Assembly: GCA_964559915.1 (NCBI GenBank)
Contig: CAZLJP010000001.1
Coordinates: forward strand, 129,510 to 193,509
Source of the DNA: an uncultured Candidatus Saccharibacteria bacterium
GTDB taxonomy: Bacteria > Patescibacteriota > Saccharimonadia > Saccharimonadales > JALRHH01
Direction: 5' to 3'
DNA: 64,000 nt
Positions 6,230-50,536 of this stretch are shown piece after piece; position 1 is the first letter of the stretch; the number at the start of each line of letters is the position of its first letter. A program made the position numbers and the translations under genes. The notes below the pieces were generated by a model. It was not told the DNA's origin, ran no database searches, and was given only the letters and a program-made list of their open reading frames with translations.

Positions 6230-6433
6230 AAAAAATATCCCTTCTGCTCAATCAGCAAGAAAGGGATAGGATGTTCGTTAAAATCACCGTATATCTTTCC
6301 GCTTTTATGAGCGGCTAGATGGAGCACCTTCATGGATTAACGGCCTTTTCGTCTATCCCATGGGTTGCCGGCAGGTCATCGAGCTAGATCTCTCGCTGCA
6401 CTCTTTATATTTGTAAAAATTATCAAAGAAAGG
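6230..6433 (-). promoter_or_regulatory. Structured about 200-nt leader upstream of the orf87-metK operon (candidate riboswitch/attenuator)
   Basis: Minus-sense leader contains GAUGA (kink-turn-like) and CCGGCAACCC motifs. It ends in an imperfect 11-bp hairpin followed by AUAUUUUUU immediately before the start codon. Confidence 0.3.
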
Positions 6434-41543: not shown

Positions 41544-41628
41544 TGGTGGGCAAGGAGGGACTCGAACCCTCAAGCCTTGCGGCACATGATTTTAAGTCGT
41601 GCGCGTATACCAGTTCCGCCACTCGCCC
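41544..41628 (-). tRNA. tRNA-Leu (anticodon TAA), type II with long variable arm, CCA encoded
   Basis: Acceptor GGGCGAG/CTTGCCC, anticodon loop CTTAAAA, variable arm GCCGCAAGGC, T-arm GAGGGTTCGAGTCCCTC. The anticodon stem has one mismatch. Confidence 0.8.
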
Positions 41629-41765
41629 TGGAGGCACCTACGGGTAACGCTCCCGTCTACACGGTTTTGCAGACCGTTGCCTAACTTCTCGGCCAAGGCG
41701 CCACGGTATCGTGACGATACCGTGTGATTATAGCGTATTTATATATGTATTTAACAGTGTGATAG

Positions 41766-43800: not shown

Positions 43801-44253
43801 CTATTTTAGTTCTTCTGCCAATCCAATGAGGATTTGCTCGGGACCACGCATATAGCACAGACGATATGTGTCTTCATACTGGACTATTTCTCCGACAAGC
43901 TTCGCACCGTGCTTCTGCAGCCTGGACACTGTGTCATCAATATCTATTACTGTGAACATACTGCGCAGATAACCAAGAGCATTGACTGGCGCGCTGCGAT
44001 GATCAGCAACTGGCGACGGCGCCAGATAACGACAGAGTTCTAGTCTGCTGTGCCCATCGGGTGTGACCATCATGGCAATCTCAACACGCTGGCCATCTAA
44101 CCCAGTGACACGACCAGACCATTCACCTTCAAGTACTGCACGGCCCTCAAGCTTCAGACCAAGCTCTGTAAAAAAAGATACGACTTCATCCAGTGATTCA
44201 ACGACTATGCCAACGTTGTCCATTCTTTTTAGGTTAGATTGGTTTGGTTCCAT
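43801..44253 (-). CDS. VOC (glyoxalase/bleomycin-resistance) family protein
   Basis: Start placed at MEPNQSNLKRMDNVGIVVESLDEV. The longer track ORF runs through repeat (a), and alternative starts sit 8 or 31 codons upstream. Confidence 0.6.
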   Translation of the reverse strand: MEPNQSNLKRMDNVGIVVESLDEVVSFFTELGLKLEGRAVLEGEWSGRVTGLDGQRVEIAMMVTPDGHSRLELCRYLAPSPVADHRSAPVNALGYLRSMFTVIDIDDTVSRLQKHGAKLVGEIVQYEDTYRLCYMRGPEQILIGLAEELK

Positions 44254-44310
44254 ATGCTCTATTCTAGCACTTAACATCTTTGGGGTTAACGCCCCTGTTT
44301 GGGCACAAAG

Positions 44311-44439
44311 AAAACACCGAGTTGCTCGACGTTTTACATAGGTCATTATCAAAAATGCAAATTGGTGTGGGCAAGGAGACTCGAGGCTCCCGGCCGATGG
44401 CGGTGGGAGCATCCTGGCCAGTTAATTATTTTTGAAGAG
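44311..44439. repeat. 129-bp direct repeat copy (a); includes a mimic of the tRNA-Gly 3' end plus a terminator-like hairpin
   Basis: Core TGGTGTGGGCAAGGAGACTCGAGGCTCCCGGCCGATGGCGGTGGGAGCATCCTGGCCAGTTAATTATTTTTGAAGAG preceded by AAAACACCGAGTTGCTCGACGTTTTACA. About 90% identical to copy (b). Confidence 0.8.
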
Positions 44440-44482
44440 ACGAGCAATTTGACCTTGCAGGCGATTTACTTGATCAATAGAT

Positions 44483-45334
44483 TTAAATGCAAGAATGATT
44501 GAAATCTAGATTTTTCTGAACATACTGTGTAAGCCAAATTGTGCCGCCAGCAGTTAGCGATGGTACAGTACAGTTATCTTTTGCATTCGCAAGGCTCGCA
44601 CCACTTGGTCGCCAGTTAGGCAGTCCAATGAGGTTACCGCTTGTGACTTGCGTAGTACCAACAATTTGCTCCCACTGAGACTTGGTAGAATATAGGCCAA
44701 CCGTTGCGCTCTTTGACTGATAGTATGCTGCAAAACCCTCTATTGCTGCTTTGTTGAGAGCTAGCCCACTGCCAGTCTGCCAAGAATTCATAGTTTCTAC
44801 ATCAAGCCACCACGTGTACTTGCTTGTGTCCGTACCAATCCCCGCAGCCTGTGCTCTGCTGACAAAGTATGCTTCTGTTTCAACTGAACGGTTCCAGCCG
44901 TACTGCCAAGAACAAGCTTCATTATTGTTTCTCACACCAGCACATGCACCGTAAGGAGTGGCACCAGTAGTCGGCCAGTTATTCCAGTTGTAGGCAGTAT
45001 CTTGTGCTGGGTTGGCGGTATTTACATACACCTGTACTTTTGGCTGCTTTGAGTTTGTATCAGCTTTAGCACTATTAGCCCACGCAAGCTGTTGGGTTAA
45101 ACACGTGTTGTATGAGGCTGCTGTACCACCGTTTACGCCCACAATACCAAAGTAATGGTCAGTTGGTAGCTTCTTGCCACACTGCGGGTAAGATACGTCG
45201 TAACCAACGTATTCAACTGTTGGAGTTGGACTAGGACTCCCCCCTCCGCCTACAGGTTTAGCTGCAAATGCCACAGATGGGACGAGCAAGACTGCAACAA
45301 ATGATACTGATACAAGGGATAATAATTTCTTCAT
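44483..45334 (-). CDS. Secreted glycoside-hydrolase-like protein (GH25/Rv2525c-like lysozyme-type fold), single-gene cassette between direct repeats
   Basis: Start at MKKLLSLVSVSFVAVLLVPSVAFA signal peptide. Mature region YVGYDVSYPQCGKKLPTDHYFGIVGVNGG...VQVYVNTANP resembles GH25/DUF1906 N-terminal strands. The fold call is tentative. Confidence 0.45.
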   Translation of the reverse strand: MKKLLSLVSVSFVAVLLVPSVAFAAKPVGGGGSPSPTPTVEYVGYDVSYPQCGKKLPTDHYFGIVGVNGGTAASYNTCLTQQLAWANSAKADTNSKQPKVQVYVNTANPAQDTAYNWNNWPTTGATPYGACAGVRNNNEACSWQYGWNRSVETEAYFVSRAQAAGIGTDTSKYTWWLDVETMNSWQTGSGLALNKAAIEGFAAYYQSKSATVGLYSTKSQWEQIVGTTQVTSGNLIGLPNWRPSGASLANAKDNCTVPSLTAGGTIWLTQYVQKNLDFNHSCI

Positions 45335-45384
45335 AAACAAATTATAACAGATTAGGCAGTGCGAGTCCTTTGTGGGTTGAATTA

Positions 45385-45512
45385 AAAAACACCAATTTGC
45401 TCGGTGTTTTACAGGCATAGATTTTACGAAATCATTGGTGCGGGCAAGGAGACTCAAGGCTCCCGACCGCAAGCGGTGGTAGCATCCTGGCCAGTTAATT
45501 ATTTTTGAAGAG
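45385..45512. repeat. 129-bp direct repeat copy (b); immediately downstream (minus sense) of tRNA-Gly and its terminator
   Basis: First 21 nt (TGGTGCGGGCAAGGAGACTCA) are identical to the tRNA-Gly 3' end including CCA. The remainder matches copy (a) only. Confidence 0.8.
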
Positions 45513-45544
45513 GCCAGGAGTTTGAATCTGGCTCAAACCAAGCA

Positions 45545-45572
45545 AAAACCCGGATTCTCATCCGGGTCTTGG
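45545..45572 (-). terminator. Rho-independent terminator after tRNA-Gly
   Basis: CCCGGA-TGAGAA-TCCGGG hairpin followed by TTTTTGCTT (minus sense). Confidence 0.7.
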
Positions 45573-45574
45573 CT

Positions 45575-45650
45575 TGGTGCGGGCAAGGAGACTCAAACTC
45601 CTGGCCTCTTCCTTGGCAAGGAAGCGCTCTATCAACTGAGCTATGCCCGC
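45575..45650 (-). tRNA. tRNA-Gly (anticodon GCC), CCA encoded
   Basis: Acceptor GCGGGCA/TGCCCGC, anticodon loop TTGCCAA, T-arm AGGAGTTTGAGTCTCCT. Confidence 0.85.
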
Positions 45651-50289: not shown

Positions 50290-50536
50290 GAGCTTATATA
50301 GTTACATATTATTGTTTGACTGCAAATAGCTTATAATCTTTAACAAGTCGCTTACGCGACCTACATCCTAGAGCCAGCCGCAAGGAAAGGTATGGAAATC
50401 AAATCAACAGAAAGAGACAGCTCGTCATGGGTACTTCTTTCTGTTGTCATTGCTGGAAACGGTGATGGGTGGCCGAAAGGTTGCCGCTCGTGGCGAGCTT
50501 TTTGTTTGCCGAATACAAACTTAGAAGGGTAATATT

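What the first reader, a model, noticed from the sequence alone, without database searches (positions are those of the whole stretch)
44311..45650. Single-gene cassette (secreted lysozyme/GH-like protein) bracketed by two 129-bp direct repeats that mimic the 3' end of the adjacent tRNA-Gly
Two about 90%-identical 129-bp direct repeats lie at 44311..44439 and 45385..45512. Both begin (minus sense: end) with a 21-nt copy of the tRNA-Gly(GCC) 3' end including discriminator and CCA. The identity then continues for about 57 nt that is absent from the tRNA. Each repeat also has an upstream hairpin/T-run module. They flank exactly one gene, 44483..45334, a signal-peptide protein with GH25/Rv2525c-like strands. 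The complete tRNA-Gly and its terminator sit 60 nt from copy (b). An inverted fragment of the tRNA-Gly T-arm (CCAGGAGTTTGAATCTGG) lies on the opposite strand at 45516..45536. This is the footprint expected for serial site-specific integration into a tRNA 3' end, with attL/attR remnants or a tandem array and the integrase lost. Alternatively it is a novel cassette system that uses a tRNA-3'-like recombination site. The cargo being a cell-wall hydrolase fits a decayed phage or a mobile lytic cassette.
Basis: partly seen in the sequence, partly recalled or inferred. Interest (0 to 1): 0.7.

Follow-up and report, generated by a model that had tools for sequence, protein, structure and literature searches.

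The report
Integration-site relics beside tRNA-Gly
The two repeats around this one gene are worn-down attachment-site junctions at a tRNA-Gly gene that mobile elements of Saccharibacteria, driven by a large serine integrase, repeatedly use as a landing pad; the integrase is absent from this 64-kb window.

Summary
Two direct repeats flank one gene. Their core is 44361-44439 versus 45434-45512, 79 nt at 91% identity, and weaker similarity extends to about 130-170 nt. Each repeat carries a 21-23-nt copy of the tRNA-Gly(GCC) 3' end.

The organism is a Candidatus Saccharimonadales bacterium. In its relatives, the interval from tRNA-Gly to tRNA-Cys/Leu is a variable hotspot. Full-length large serine integrases of 499-545 aa sit next to tRNA-Gly there. 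Their reading frame runs through the attachment site, on the strand opposite the tRNA's CCA end. Integration therefore strands the last 35 codons at the far junction, and arrays of such 35-codon relics are common.

The window repeats fit this system:
- Their 3' halves match the trailer and terminator that follow an intact tRNA-Gly in locus L014 (81% and 75%).
- Copy a keeps the last integrase codons plus the stop codon.
- The 57-nt part is the right half of a recurrent 140-150-nt structured module found at the same place in four other genomes.

No integrase homologue is in the window. The gene between the repeats is a secreted protein with a GH25-like fold. It is widespread in the order and is not shown to be a phage lysin. 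Whether the two copies arose by serial integration, by excision scars, or by local duplication and gene conversion is not settled.

The parts
45575..45650 (-). tRNA-Gly(GCC), intact. Its CCA end is the crossover region (O) of the integrase family.
   Evidence: ARAGORN. Rfam tRNA model, 69.6 bits. In at least 9 related contigs the last 9 nt of a serine integrase ORF overlap this tRNA's 3' end from the other strand.
45540..45574 (-). Present trailer of the tRNA, with an intrinsic terminator at 45545-45570. It differs from the trailer carried by the two repeats.
   Evidence: Terminator scan. Alignment with the repeats. Corresponds to the left part of module M in the alignment.
45507..45529 (+). 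Inverted copy of tRNA-Gly positions 40-62. It forms the 5' strands of the outer stem and of stem SL1 of module M.
   Evidence: I1: 23 nt, 96% complementary. The same arrangement occurs in L025, L157 and L158. Fold.
45458..45506 (-). Copy b, right half of module M: an A-rich stretch, GGCCAGGA (45485-45492, a copy of tRNA positions 45-52), and the GC hairpin SL2, ACCG-CTTG-CGGT (45466-45477).
   Evidence: A promoter-like site, TTCAAA-17-AATAAT, at 45526..45498 is unverified.
45435..45457 (-). Copy b, O: 23 nt identical to the tRNA-Gly 3' end, from the T-loop through CCA plus one A.
45384..45434 (-). Copy b, tRNA-Gly-type trailer with an intrinsic terminator hairpin and T-run (45384-45410).
   Evidence: 75% identical (60/80) to the trailer of the intact tRNA-Gly in L014; 79% (59/75) to the region upstream of the orthologous gene in L009. 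nhmmer hits. Fold.
45341..45346 (-). TATAAT box 6 nt before the ATG of the cargo gene, suggesting a leaderless transcript.
   Evidence: Read from the sequence. The same arrangement is seen before the orthologues in L001, L003, L004, L008, L009 and L010. Inference; there is no expression data.
44483..45334 (-). Cargo gene: secreted 283-aa protein with a GH25-lysozyme-like barrel.
   Evidence: Translation. No Pfam, NCBIfam or PDB sequence hit. AlphaFold2 model, mean pLDDT 84.9. Best Foldseek PDB matches are GH25 lysozymes: 2x8r (E 2.5e-3, TM 0.61 on the target), 2wag, and Cpl-1. Invariant GYDVS and LDVE in 45 homologues.
44436..44480 (+). Relic of the last codons and stop of the serine integrase gene (RDEQFDLAGDLLDQ*), on the strand opposite the cargo gene.
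   Evidence: Frame 0. The DNA is 88% (23/26), 81% (22/27) and 81% (21/26) identical to the same part of complete relics in L009, L008 and L024. The nhmmer hit at 44470-44441 has E 0.02 only.
44385..44439 (-). Copy a, right half of module M (A-rich stretch, GGCCAGGA, SL2 with a different loop).
44362..44384 (-). Copy a, O: tRNA-Gly 3' end copy, 21 of 23 nt matching (one mismatch in the 20-mer GAGTCTCCTTGCCCGCACCA).
44282..44361 (-). Copy a, tRNA-Gly-type trailer, intrinsic terminator (44311-44335), and the motif CCCAAACAGGGGCGTTAACCCC.
   Evidence: 81% identical (54/67) to the L014 tRNA-Gly trailer. nhmmer E 2.4e-9 against the element profile. Fold.
43801..44253 (-). Next gene, glyoxalase-fold protein, with a TAGAAT box 7 nt before its ATG. 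This is the first gene after copy a.
   Evidence: Pfam PF13669 and PF00903. The same cargo-then-glyoxalase order is seen in L003.

Best explanation
The repeats are relics of site-specific recombination at a tRNA-Gly(GCC) landing pad.

How the live system works. In Saccharimonadales, a family of integrative elements encodes a large serine recombinase. Its reading frame, on the strand opposite the tRNA, crosses its own attachment site. The codons TGG-TGC (Trp-Cys) are the reverse complement of the tRNA's GCACCA end. Integration joins the integrase body to the tRNA, and the frame then ends ...NIWCG-stop. The original last 35 codons are left at the far junction, followed by GCACCA and whatever followed the tRNA before. 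Repeated events and decay leave arrays of these junctions. They separate one to six co-oriented genes between tRNA-Gly and tRNA-Cys/Leu(taa).

The structured module. A second recurrent piece is a 140-150-nt module that I call M. In order it holds a terminator, an inverted copy of the tRNA T-arm region, a direct 8-9-nt copy of that region, a GC hairpin, and a direct copy of tRNA positions 51/55-76. In several genomes it sits between the intact tRNA and the old junction.

Reading the window. The order is tRNA-Gly, module M ending in copy b, a tRNA-type trailer and terminator, the GH25-like gene, the last integrase codons, a second right half of M ending in copy a, a second tRNA-type trailer and terminator, then the glyoxalase-fold gene. 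No integrase gene is present.

What the repeats most likely do today (inferred). Each places an intrinsic terminator in front of the next gene's own promoter. They are also homology for recombination that could delete or duplicate the gene.

Shown versus inferred. Shown: the sequence relationships, and the integrase, tRNA and relic geometry in related contigs. Inferred: the order of events in this genome, and any present activity.
For: 1. Homology of the repeat 3' halves.
- They match the sequence directly after an intact tRNA-Gly in L014: nhmmer E 2.4e-12; 81% and 75% identity.
- They also match junctions without a tRNA in L024, L078, L009, L010 and L043.

2. A conserved coding relic on the opposite strand.
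- The consensus is WCRIVDxFLTAxxxxxDxYKLxxLVxQFNLSGxL, followed by a stop.
- Mean pairwise differences by codon position are 0.44, 0.33 and 0.53.
- 528 synonymous codon differences occur in this frame, against 167-380 in the other five frames.

3. The relic is an integrase tail.
- It is the in-frame tail of a protein with Resolvase, Recombinase and Zn_ribbon_recom Pfam domains (the zinc-ribbon match is below Pfam's own cut-off). L095 has a 534-aa ORF ending ...NVWCTIVDAFQ...LSGNLI.
- Twelve contigs hold 499-545-aa ORFs ending WCG-stop. In the eight of them scanned for tRNAs, plus L121, the last 9 nt overlap tRNA-Gly(GCC) from the other strand.

4. Tandem copies on one contig. L095 and L097 lie 10.8 kb apart on the same contig. 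Their integrases are 100% identical over 501 aa and differ only in the tail. This gives the attL and attP junctions side by side.

5. A worked example. L025 has tRNA-Gly, an integrase remnant reading into it, six forward genes, then the 35-codon relic.

6. Module M recurs. It has the same order of parts in the window, L157, L158, L169 and L025. In each genome the tRNA-derived copies match (95-100%) that genome's tRNA-Gly where it is in the locus (window, L025, L157, L158).

7. Copy a's left flank matches the integrase-tail end of L009, L008 and L024.

8. Neighbours change across genomes. The cargo gene keeps its flanking junction sequences in L003, L008, L009 and L010 while its neighbouring genes differ.

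9. No integrase homologue in the window. All tblastn hits have E above 0.05, and no recombinase Pfam domain was found among 19 ORFs scanned between 36 and 56 kb.
Against: - No empty or occupied pair was found for this exact gene. The source genome is not among the species representatives scanned, and no strain variants were found.
- Simple serial integration at one site predicts only one native trailer. The window has two trailer-like copies, so an extra step is needed: excision scars, duplication, gene conversion, or elements that carry a trailer-like arm.
- The 91% core shared by a and b contrasts with very different M sequences in other genomes. This points to a within-genome copying event rather than two imports.
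- The middle of the window repeats does not align with the canonical 35-codon relic.
- The origin and role of module M are unknown.
- No recombination has been observed directly. All evidence is comparative.
Confidence: 0.72

Rival explanations
1. Local tandem duplication or gene conversion only. An intergenic segment downstream of tRNA-Gly was copied to the other side of the gene by unequal crossing-over or conversion, and site-specific recombination played no part in making these two copies.
For: - The 79-nt core is 91% identical within the genome, while the corresponding modules in other genomes are barely alignable.
- Flanking repeats around this gene were detected only in the window and in L003, with a weaker pair read by eye in L008, out of about 40 Saccharimonadales loci.
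- L003's pair has its own sequence, as expected for homogenisation within a genome.
Against: - It does not explain why the copied material is attachment-site material: the tRNA 3' end, a tRNA-type trailer, and an integrase-tail relic.
- It does not explain why the same kinds of junction punctuate the same interval in many genomes.
- The outer parts of a and b, the trailers and left flanks, are much more diverged than the core. At most, conversion acted on top of older junctions.
Confidence: 0.15
2. Cassette-type system. Units of one or a few genes, bounded by a junction sequence, are mobilised in trans by the serine integrase or another recombinase. Module M serves as a structured recombination site or as a regenerated landing pad.
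For: - Single genes or short gene groups are separated by junction relics in L010, L024, L078 and L141.
- The cargo gene keeps its flanks while its neighbours change.
- Many relics are followed not by an integrase body but by a terminator and a forward gene.
- M folds into a conserved three-way structure, with z-scores down to -6.9.
- M tracks each genome's own tRNA sequence.
Against: - No circular cassette, no empty or occupied pair, and no trans-acting enzyme has been shown.
- Deletion decay of ordinary integrative elements explains arrays of relics.
- The coding-type conservation of the relics indicates that they diverged as parts of working integrase genes, not as dedicated cassette sites.
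- The cargo has its own promoter, unlike integron cassettes.
Confidence: 0.1
3. The repeat is a small structured RNA gene present in two copies: a tRNA-like RNA with a 3' CCA end, its own promoter and its own terminator, unrelated to recombination.
For: - A promoter-like site precedes copy b, and a hairpin plus T-run follows both copies.
- Differences between a and b cluster in the loop of hairpin SL2.
- The M sequences fold better than shuffles: z -2.3 for the window, -5.3 to -6.9 for L158, L025 and L169.
Against: - No Rfam family matches, even at E up to 10.
- ARAGORN finds no tRNA there, and no 5' acceptor strand is present.
- The short folds of the window copies are weak: z -1.7 and +0.05.
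- The helices are built from copies of the neighbouring tRNA, so their covariation is not independent evidence.
- In L157, L158 and L169 the same module abuts an integrase remnant.
Confidence: 0.05

Closest known systems
Prophage and integrative-element attachment sites at tRNA 3' ends, including tandem arrays at one tRNA (general knowledge of genomic islands)
   Same: Direct repeats that copy the tRNA 3' end. The tRNA stays intact. Variable cargo lies downstream. Relics accumulate at one hotspot.
   Different: The enzyme is a large serine recombinase rather than the usual tyrosine integrase. The shared core is only about GCACCA for the canonical junctions. The window copies carry a longer tRNA copy of 21-23 nt plus a structured module.
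SSV1-type 'suicidal' integrases of archaea, whose att site lies inside the integrase gene (review PMC8371274, read)
   Same: The attachment site lies inside the integrase reading frame. Integration splits the gene and leaves a C-terminal fragment at the far junction next to a tRNA-derived core. Such fragments litter genomes.
   Different: Those are tyrosine recombinases, and the review states they are known only from archaea. They lose a large part of the protein. Here a bacterial (Saccharimonadales) serine recombinase loses only its last 35 residues and keeps all recognised domains.
Integration-dependent immunity of mycobacteriophages BPs and Brujita, where attP lies inside the repressor gene (PMC4557955, abstract seen; further details from my own knowledge)
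   Same: Integration at a tRNA gene removes a short C-terminal tail from a phage protein. The integrated and free forms therefore differ.
   Different: There the affected gene is the repressor and the tail is a degradation tag. Here it is the integrase itself. What the 35-residue tail does is unknown.
Integron gene cassettes and attC sites
   Same: Co-oriented single genes separated by structured, sequence-variable sites. The sites are composites of two neighbouring units.
   Different: No IntI-type tyrosine recombinase or attI site was found. The cargo has its own promoter. The sites derive from a tRNA end and an integrase tail. No mobility has been shown.
GH25 lysozymes (Cpl-1, Cellosyl and the A. 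fumigatus enzyme 2x8r) and GH25-like proteins such as Rv2525c
   Same: The predicted barrel resembles GH25 structures. The invariant GYDVS and LDVE motifs resemble the GH25 N-terminal Asp and D-x-E motifs; that comparison rests on my own knowledge.
   Different: No Pfam or PDB sequence match. Foldseek E is only 2.5e-3. No activity has been tested.

Membership tests
att-site relic of a tRNA-targeting integrative element | Direct-orientation copy of the 3' end of the adjacent tRNA gene | tested here: met
   23 nt at 100% in copy b. In copy a, 21 of 23 nt match (91%; one mismatch in the 20-mer). No match of the 20-mer in any of 100 shuffles.
att-site relic of a tRNA-targeting integrative element | Sequence beyond the core matches what follows the unoccupied tRNA gene in relatives (the attB right arm) | tested here: met
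   81% and 75% identity to the trailer of the intact tRNA-Gly in L014.
att-site relic of a tRNA-targeting integrative element | Integrase gene next to the tRNA, or at least in the same locus | tested here: not met
   No serine-integrase homologue in the 64-kb window (tblastn, all E above 0.05). No recombinase Pfam domain among 19 ORFs scanned between 36 and 56 kb. The feature is met in relatives. The rest of the source genome could not be searched.
att-site relic of a tRNA-targeting integrative element | Element-derived arm on the other side of the core (here the integrase's last 35 codons) | tested here: inconclusive
   Copy a keeps only about 14 codons plus the stop: 81-88% DNA identity over 26-27 nt to complete relics, but nhmmer E is only 0.02. 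Copy b has the inverted tRNA fragment at that position instead.
att-site relic of a tRNA-targeting integrative element | Occupied versus empty site among close relatives | tested here: inconclusive
   The gene's neighbours differ among L003, L008, L009, L010 and the window while the flanks persist. No empty site for this gene was found, and no strain variants are on record.
Integron cassette / attC | IntI-type tyrosine recombinase with attI at the head of the array | tested here: not met
   None was found among the ORFs scanned next to the array. The enzyme linked to these junctions in relatives is a serine recombinase.
Integron cassette / attC | Promoterless cassettes ending in an attC with inverse core sites (RYYYAAC ... 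GTTRRRY) | tested here: not met
   The gene has a TATAAT box 6 nt before its ATG. Reading the repeat ends shows no such core sites.
SSV1-type 'suicidal' integrase system | att site inside the integrase reading frame, so that integration splits the gene | tested here: met
   Shown in relatives, not in the window: the L095 tail versus the L097 tail, with the bodies 100% identical.
SSV1-type 'suicidal' integrase system | Tyrosine recombinase of the SSV/pTN3/pT26-2 group (PF16795), archaeal host | tested here: not met
   The Pfam domains are Resolvase, Recombinase and Zn_ribbon_recom. The hosts are Saccharimonadales bacteria.
tRNA gene or tRNA pseudogene | Cloverleaf detected by ARAGORN or the Rfam tRNA model | tested here: not met
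   No hit on either repeat, even at E up to 10. No 5' acceptor strand is present.
GH25 lysozyme | Sequence membership (Pfam Glyco_hydro_25) | tested here: not met
   No Pfam, NCBIfam or PDB sequence hit.
GH25 lysozyme | GH25-type barrel fold with conserved acidic residues | tested here: inconclusive
   Foldseek top hits are GH25 structures, but at E 2.5e-3 and TM 0.47 (query) / 0.61 (target). D46 and D178-x-E180 are invariant in 45 homologues. Their equivalence to the catalytic residues was not checked by superposition.

The most novel reading that the evidence does not exclude
Module M and the junction-bounded one-gene units form a working gene-capture system. M would be a structured, tRNA-matching mimic of the landing site that regenerates a free attB after each integration. 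It would let the serine integrase, supplied in trans, insert, excise and shuffle small promoter-bearing units at tRNA-Gly. This would be an integron-like gene-capture device in ultra-small epibiotic bacteria. In addition, the 35-residue tail that integration removes could set the direction of the reaction.
Probability: 0.13. Interest if true: 0.8.

Novelty: new variant of a known kind. Interest (0 to 1): 0.55.

Why it matters
The feature in the window is a relic and probably does little today. Following it exposed how gene content turns over at one hotspot in Saccharibacteria, which have tiny genomes and few described mobile elements.

The driver is a large serine integrase whose own reading frame crosses the attachment site. 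Every integration swaps its last 35 residues and leaves a datable footprint. A review states that integrases carrying their target inside their own gene are known only from archaea, and only among tyrosine recombinases (PMC8371274).

The footprints give three things:
- a ready marker for mapping past integrations in these uncultured genomes;
- candidate attP and attB pairs for a compact integrase;
- a testable idea that the tail controls direction or stability.

The gene between the repeats, a secreted GH25-like protein shared with Actinomycetota, the phylum of the known hosts of cultured Saccharibacteria, may matter for the epibiotic lifestyle.

Tried and rejected
- Known RNA family. Rfam gave nothing on the repeats, at gathering thresholds or at E up to 10.
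- tRNA pseudogene. A MAFFT alignment to the whole tRNA looked suggestive. Identity upstream of the 23-mer is near random, there is no 5' acceptor strand, and ARAGORN is negative.
- Riboswitch or attenuator for the downstream gene. Rejected because a -10-like box sits 6-8 nt before the ATG, downstream of the hairpin and T-run, in the window and in six related loci. The hairpin therefore ends an upstream unit.
- Paralogy of the flanking genes (segmental duplication of repeat plus gene). The neighbours are unrelated families.
- The 35-codon frame as an independent small protein. It has no conserved start codon, and conservation begins exactly at Trp-Cys.
- A full-length parent protein. Neither the word-indexed search nor the exhaustive profile search showed one. 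It was found only after the in-frame upstream part was used as a query and metagenome contigs were scanned.
- BLASTP of that fragment against the tRNA-Asn integrase of L006 was not significant, and PHROGs gave nothing.
- Aligning the window repeats with L003's flanking repeats failed. They are differently decayed versions.
- The tRNA trailer as a derivative of the integrase 3' end. No convincing similarity by eye, so dropped.
- Exact-protein look-ups for strain variants of the glyoxalase-fold gene found nothing. The look-up for the hydrolase gave one 1-kb contig that breaks inside the tRNA.
- One scan of viral contigs gave only a fragment.
Full report
**Observation.** On the minus strand the order is: tRNA-Gly(GCC) at 45650-45575; a terminator; an inverted 23-nt piece of the same tRNA; copy b; one gene at 45334-44483; copy a; then a glyoxalase-fold gene. 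The repeat core, 44361-44439 versus 45434-45512, is 79 nt at 91% identity with blastn E 2.5e-23. It occurs nowhere else in the window. The 23-mer TTGAGTCTCCTTGCCCGCACCAA is shared by the tRNA and copy b (100%) and by copy a (91%). No shuffle of the window produced a match to the 20-mer GAGTCTCCTTGCCCGCACCA. Beyond the core, gapped similarity runs into a hairpin plus T-run on the downstream side and weakly on the upstream side.

**Organism and the gene between the repeats.**
- Protein hits place the window in Candidatus Saccharimonadales.
- The 283-aa product has a signal peptide and no Pfam, NCBIfam or PDB sequence match. It has 2,543 database homologues.
- An AlphaFold2 model built from 45 homologues has mean pLDDT 84.9.
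- Its best Foldseek matches in the PDB are GH25 lysozymes: 2x8r at E 2.5e-3, then 2wag and Cpl-1.
- GYDVS and LDVE are invariant in the family. From my own knowledge they resemble the GH25 acidic motifs.
- The GH25-like fold is thus moderately supported. A phage origin is not.
- The family also occurs at 47-50% identity in Geodermatophilaceae (Blastococcus, Geodermatophilus, Modestobacter).

**First comparative clue.** In relatives, the gene usually lies between tRNA-Gly and tRNA-Cys/tRNA-Leu(taa), among different accessory genes. L003 also has direct repeats flanking it, and L008 has a weaker pair that I read by eye. Their sequences differ from the window's. An nhmmer profile of the window repeats hit the sequence directly downstream of an intact tRNA-Gly in L014 (E 2.4e-12). 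It also hit tRNA-less sites in L024, L078, L043, L009 and L010. Pairwise, copy a's trailer and terminator are 81% identical to the L014 tRNA-Gly trailer, and copy b's are 75% identical. The window's own tRNA-Gly now carries a different terminator. So the 3' half of each repeat is tRNA-Gly trailer material, as expected for the host-derived arm of an integration junction.

**The hidden reading frame.**
- A profile of the tRNA-less sites found 1-3 copies per locus in eight loci, always in the same interval and orientation.
- On the strand opposite the cargo genes, each copy encodes about 35 residues that begin with Trp-Cys and end in a stop. The codons TGGTGC are the reverse complement of GCACCA.
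- The consensus is WCRIVDxFLTAxxxxxDxYKLxxLVxQFNLSGxL.
- Codon-position variability is 0.44, 0.33 and 0.53. Synonymous differences number 528, against 167-380 in the other five frames. Both show that the sequence evolved as coding sequence.
- The frame has no start codon and no body.
- Database searches returned only orphan ORFs of 31-151 aa. Some carried an in-frame upstream part...LEYVLSNIELKDKKLSYILNDPFKTIVEAKKKSLSxHNSNIWC.
- Relatives of that part include fragments with a recombinase zinc ribbon (Pfam PF13408, E 9.6e-4, below cut-off) and one that NCBI names 'site-specific recombinase, partial'.

**The integrase.**
- A metagenome scan with these fragments returned 80 loci.
- Twelve hold 499-545-aa ORFs that end ...WCG-stop.
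- Three representative ORFs scanned (L095, L097, L098) have Resolvase, Recombinase and Zn_ribbon_recom domains; the zinc-ribbon match (23 bits) is below Pfam's cut-off of 25.3.
- In at least nine loci the last 9 nt overlap the 3' end of tRNA-Gly(GCC) on the other strand, often next to tRNA-Phe as in the window.
- L095 carries a 534-aa ORF ending ...NVWCTIVDAFQTSAINATNDYKLKHLVEQFQLSGNLI. It lies 10.8 kb from L097 on the same contig.
- The two proteins are 100% identical over 501 residues and differ only in the tail.
- The DNA is identical to the right of GCACCA. To the left, one has the tRNA and the other has the tail-coding arm.
- This is a tandem pair that shows attL and attP side by side, and it places the crossover in or next to GCACCA.
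- L025 shows the decayed state: tRNA-Gly, a 112-residue integrase remnant reading into it, six forward genes, then the 35-codon relic with a terminator.
- In L025 and L097 the integrase's last codons also form, on the tRNA strand, a hairpin plus T-run directly after the tRNA.
- A different serine integrase overlaps tRNA-Asn in the same way in L006. A homologue of the window's gene lies inside that element.

**The module that makes up the window repeats.** The middle of the window repeats does not align with the canonical relic. Instead it matches, in architecture, a 140-150-nt unit that I call M. M is found in L157, L158, L169 and L025.
- After a CCA end come a spacer and a terminator.
- Next is an inverted copy of tRNA positions about 43-67.
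- Next are 17-19 A-rich bases.
- Next is a direct copy of positions 44/45-52.
- Next is a GC-rich hairpin whose sequence and length differ in every genome.
- Last is a direct copy of positions 51/55-76.

In each genome the tRNA-derived copies match (95-100%) that genome's tRNA-Gly where it lies in the locus (window, L025, L157, L158). The predicted fold is a three-way junction with a free ...CCA tail. The z-scores are -2.3 (window), -1.65 (L157), and -5.3 to -6.9 (L158, L025, L169).

In L157, L158 and L169, M sits between the intact tRNA and an old junction that still has an integrase remnant. In the window, M runs from the tRNA to copy b. The spacing between the tRNA's 3' end and its copy in b is 139 nt, against 142 and 152 nt in L157 and L158. 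Copy b is followed by a tRNA-type trailer instead of an integrase. That is what excision of an element from an M-containing junction would leave; this step is inference.

Copy a is a second right half of M. Its left flank keeps the last integrase codons and the stop, RDEQFDLAGDLLDQ*, at 81-88% DNA identity to the same part of complete relics in L009, L008 and L024.

**What happened here.** The material of both repeats is junction material from this integrase system, and the window has no integrase homologue. The exact history is open. One native trailer cannot become two by simple serial integration. The 91% core also contrasts with the divergence of M between genomes and with the lower identity of the outer parts. 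The simplest reading has three parts:
- copy a began as an ordinary far junction (integrase tail, GCACCA, trailer);
- copy b is an emptied landing site behind M;
- a conversion or duplication tract later made their cores alike.

A Campbell-type insertion of a circle carrying the gene and one copy would give the same picture.

Today each repeat puts an intrinsic terminator in front of the next gene's own -10 box, which sits 6-7 nt before the ATG. The pair could also mediate loss or amplification of the gene.

**Comparison with known systems.**
- Integration next to tRNA genes, and arrays of relics there, are ordinary.
- What differs is that a bacterial large serine recombinase has its attachment site inside its own reading frame.
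- Here only the last 35 residues are exchanged and all recognised domains remain. This is closer in spirit to the integration-dependent truncation of the BPs phage repressor (PMC4557955; details from my own knowledge).
- Literature searches for Saccharibacteria combined with serine recombinase, integrase and tRNA found no description of this system. The library is limited, so this is not proof of novelty.
- Integron membership fails on the enzyme, on the core sites, and on the promoter.

**Verdict.** It is refined in three ways: the enzyme family is identified, the 35-codon footprint is described, and the recurrent module M is described. How the two copies arose and what M does remain open. 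The window feature itself is a relic. The system behind it is a new variant of a known kind.

Noticed in passing
window 50365-50485 (+) and 6288-6413 (-): Rfam matches above the gathering score: LOOT RNA (55.7 bits) and a SAM riboswitch (53.7 bits).
   Followed up: no
L036, L042, L044, L047-L090 (genome-contig loci): The secreted GH25-like protein family is shared at 47-50% identity with Geodermatophilaceae (Blastococcus, Geodermatophilus, Modestobacter) and other Actinomycetota, the phylum that includes the known hosts of cultured Saccharibacteria. This suggests gene transfer between epibiont and host lineages.
   Followed up: no
L003 1412-1436; L104, L105, L152, L158, L161, L125 (about 180-250 nt upstream of tRNA-Gly): In six of these seven loci a 24-25-nt copy (96-100% identical) of the 5' end of tRNA-Gly lies about 180-250 nt upstream of the gene, in the same orientation; L125 has an 18-nt copy (positions 3-20) about 110 nt upstream. 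Unexplained.
   Followed up: no
L025 76-130; L097 4575-4630: The last codons of the integrase (EAKKK[T/S]L..HNSN.WC) form, on the opposite strand, a hairpin plus T-run directly after the tRNA-Gly CCA end. The integrase 3' end may therefore double as the tRNA terminator after integration.
   Followed up: partly
L095 and L097 (contig Ga0209538_1000285, 30,999 nt): Two integrase genes 10.8 kb apart are 100% identical over 501 aa. This is a tandem pair of the same element, which suggests recent activity.
   Followed up: partly
L168 3300-4248: About 950 nt lie between the intact tRNA-Gly and an older junction. The stretch looks G+C-rich by eye (not measured). It holds a 100-aa ORF with a GIY-YIG-like start (MYYVYILECDKAFFYVGLTNDLEKR...) bounded by a 19-nt inverted repeat.
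   Followed up: no
window 45341-45346, 44261-44266; L001, L003, L004, L008, L009, L010 upstream of the homologous gene: TATAAT-like boxes sit only 6-8 nt before the start codons, which suggests leaderless mRNAs in these bacteria.
   Followed up: no
L006 1-9734 / L007: A homologue of the window's gene lies inside an apparent mobile element (DNA methylase, DUF87 ATPase, small reverse-strand genes). The element ends in a 545-aa serine integrase that overlaps tRNA-Asn next to smpB. L007 has the same genes, but no integrase is called there.
   Followed up: partly
Database proteins P0351, P0427, P0383 and others: Integrase C-terminal fragments of about 105-125 aa, starting near ITQTFHDE, are 70-85% identical across many Saccharimonadales contigs, including near-complete genomes. 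They are unusually uniform for pseudogene debris, and retention or domestication is possible.
   Followed up: no
L174 (Logan contig, 1,051 nt): The only other contig carrying the identical alpha/beta-hydrolase gene breaks inside tRNA-Gly, where the inverted repeat begins. This is probably an assembly break caused by the repeats.
   Followed up: no
window 41544-41702: tRNA-Leu(taa) and tRNA-Cys(gca) abut with no spacer by the ARAGORN coordinates (41628/41629). This pair marks the far end of the variable interval in many relatives.
   Followed up: no
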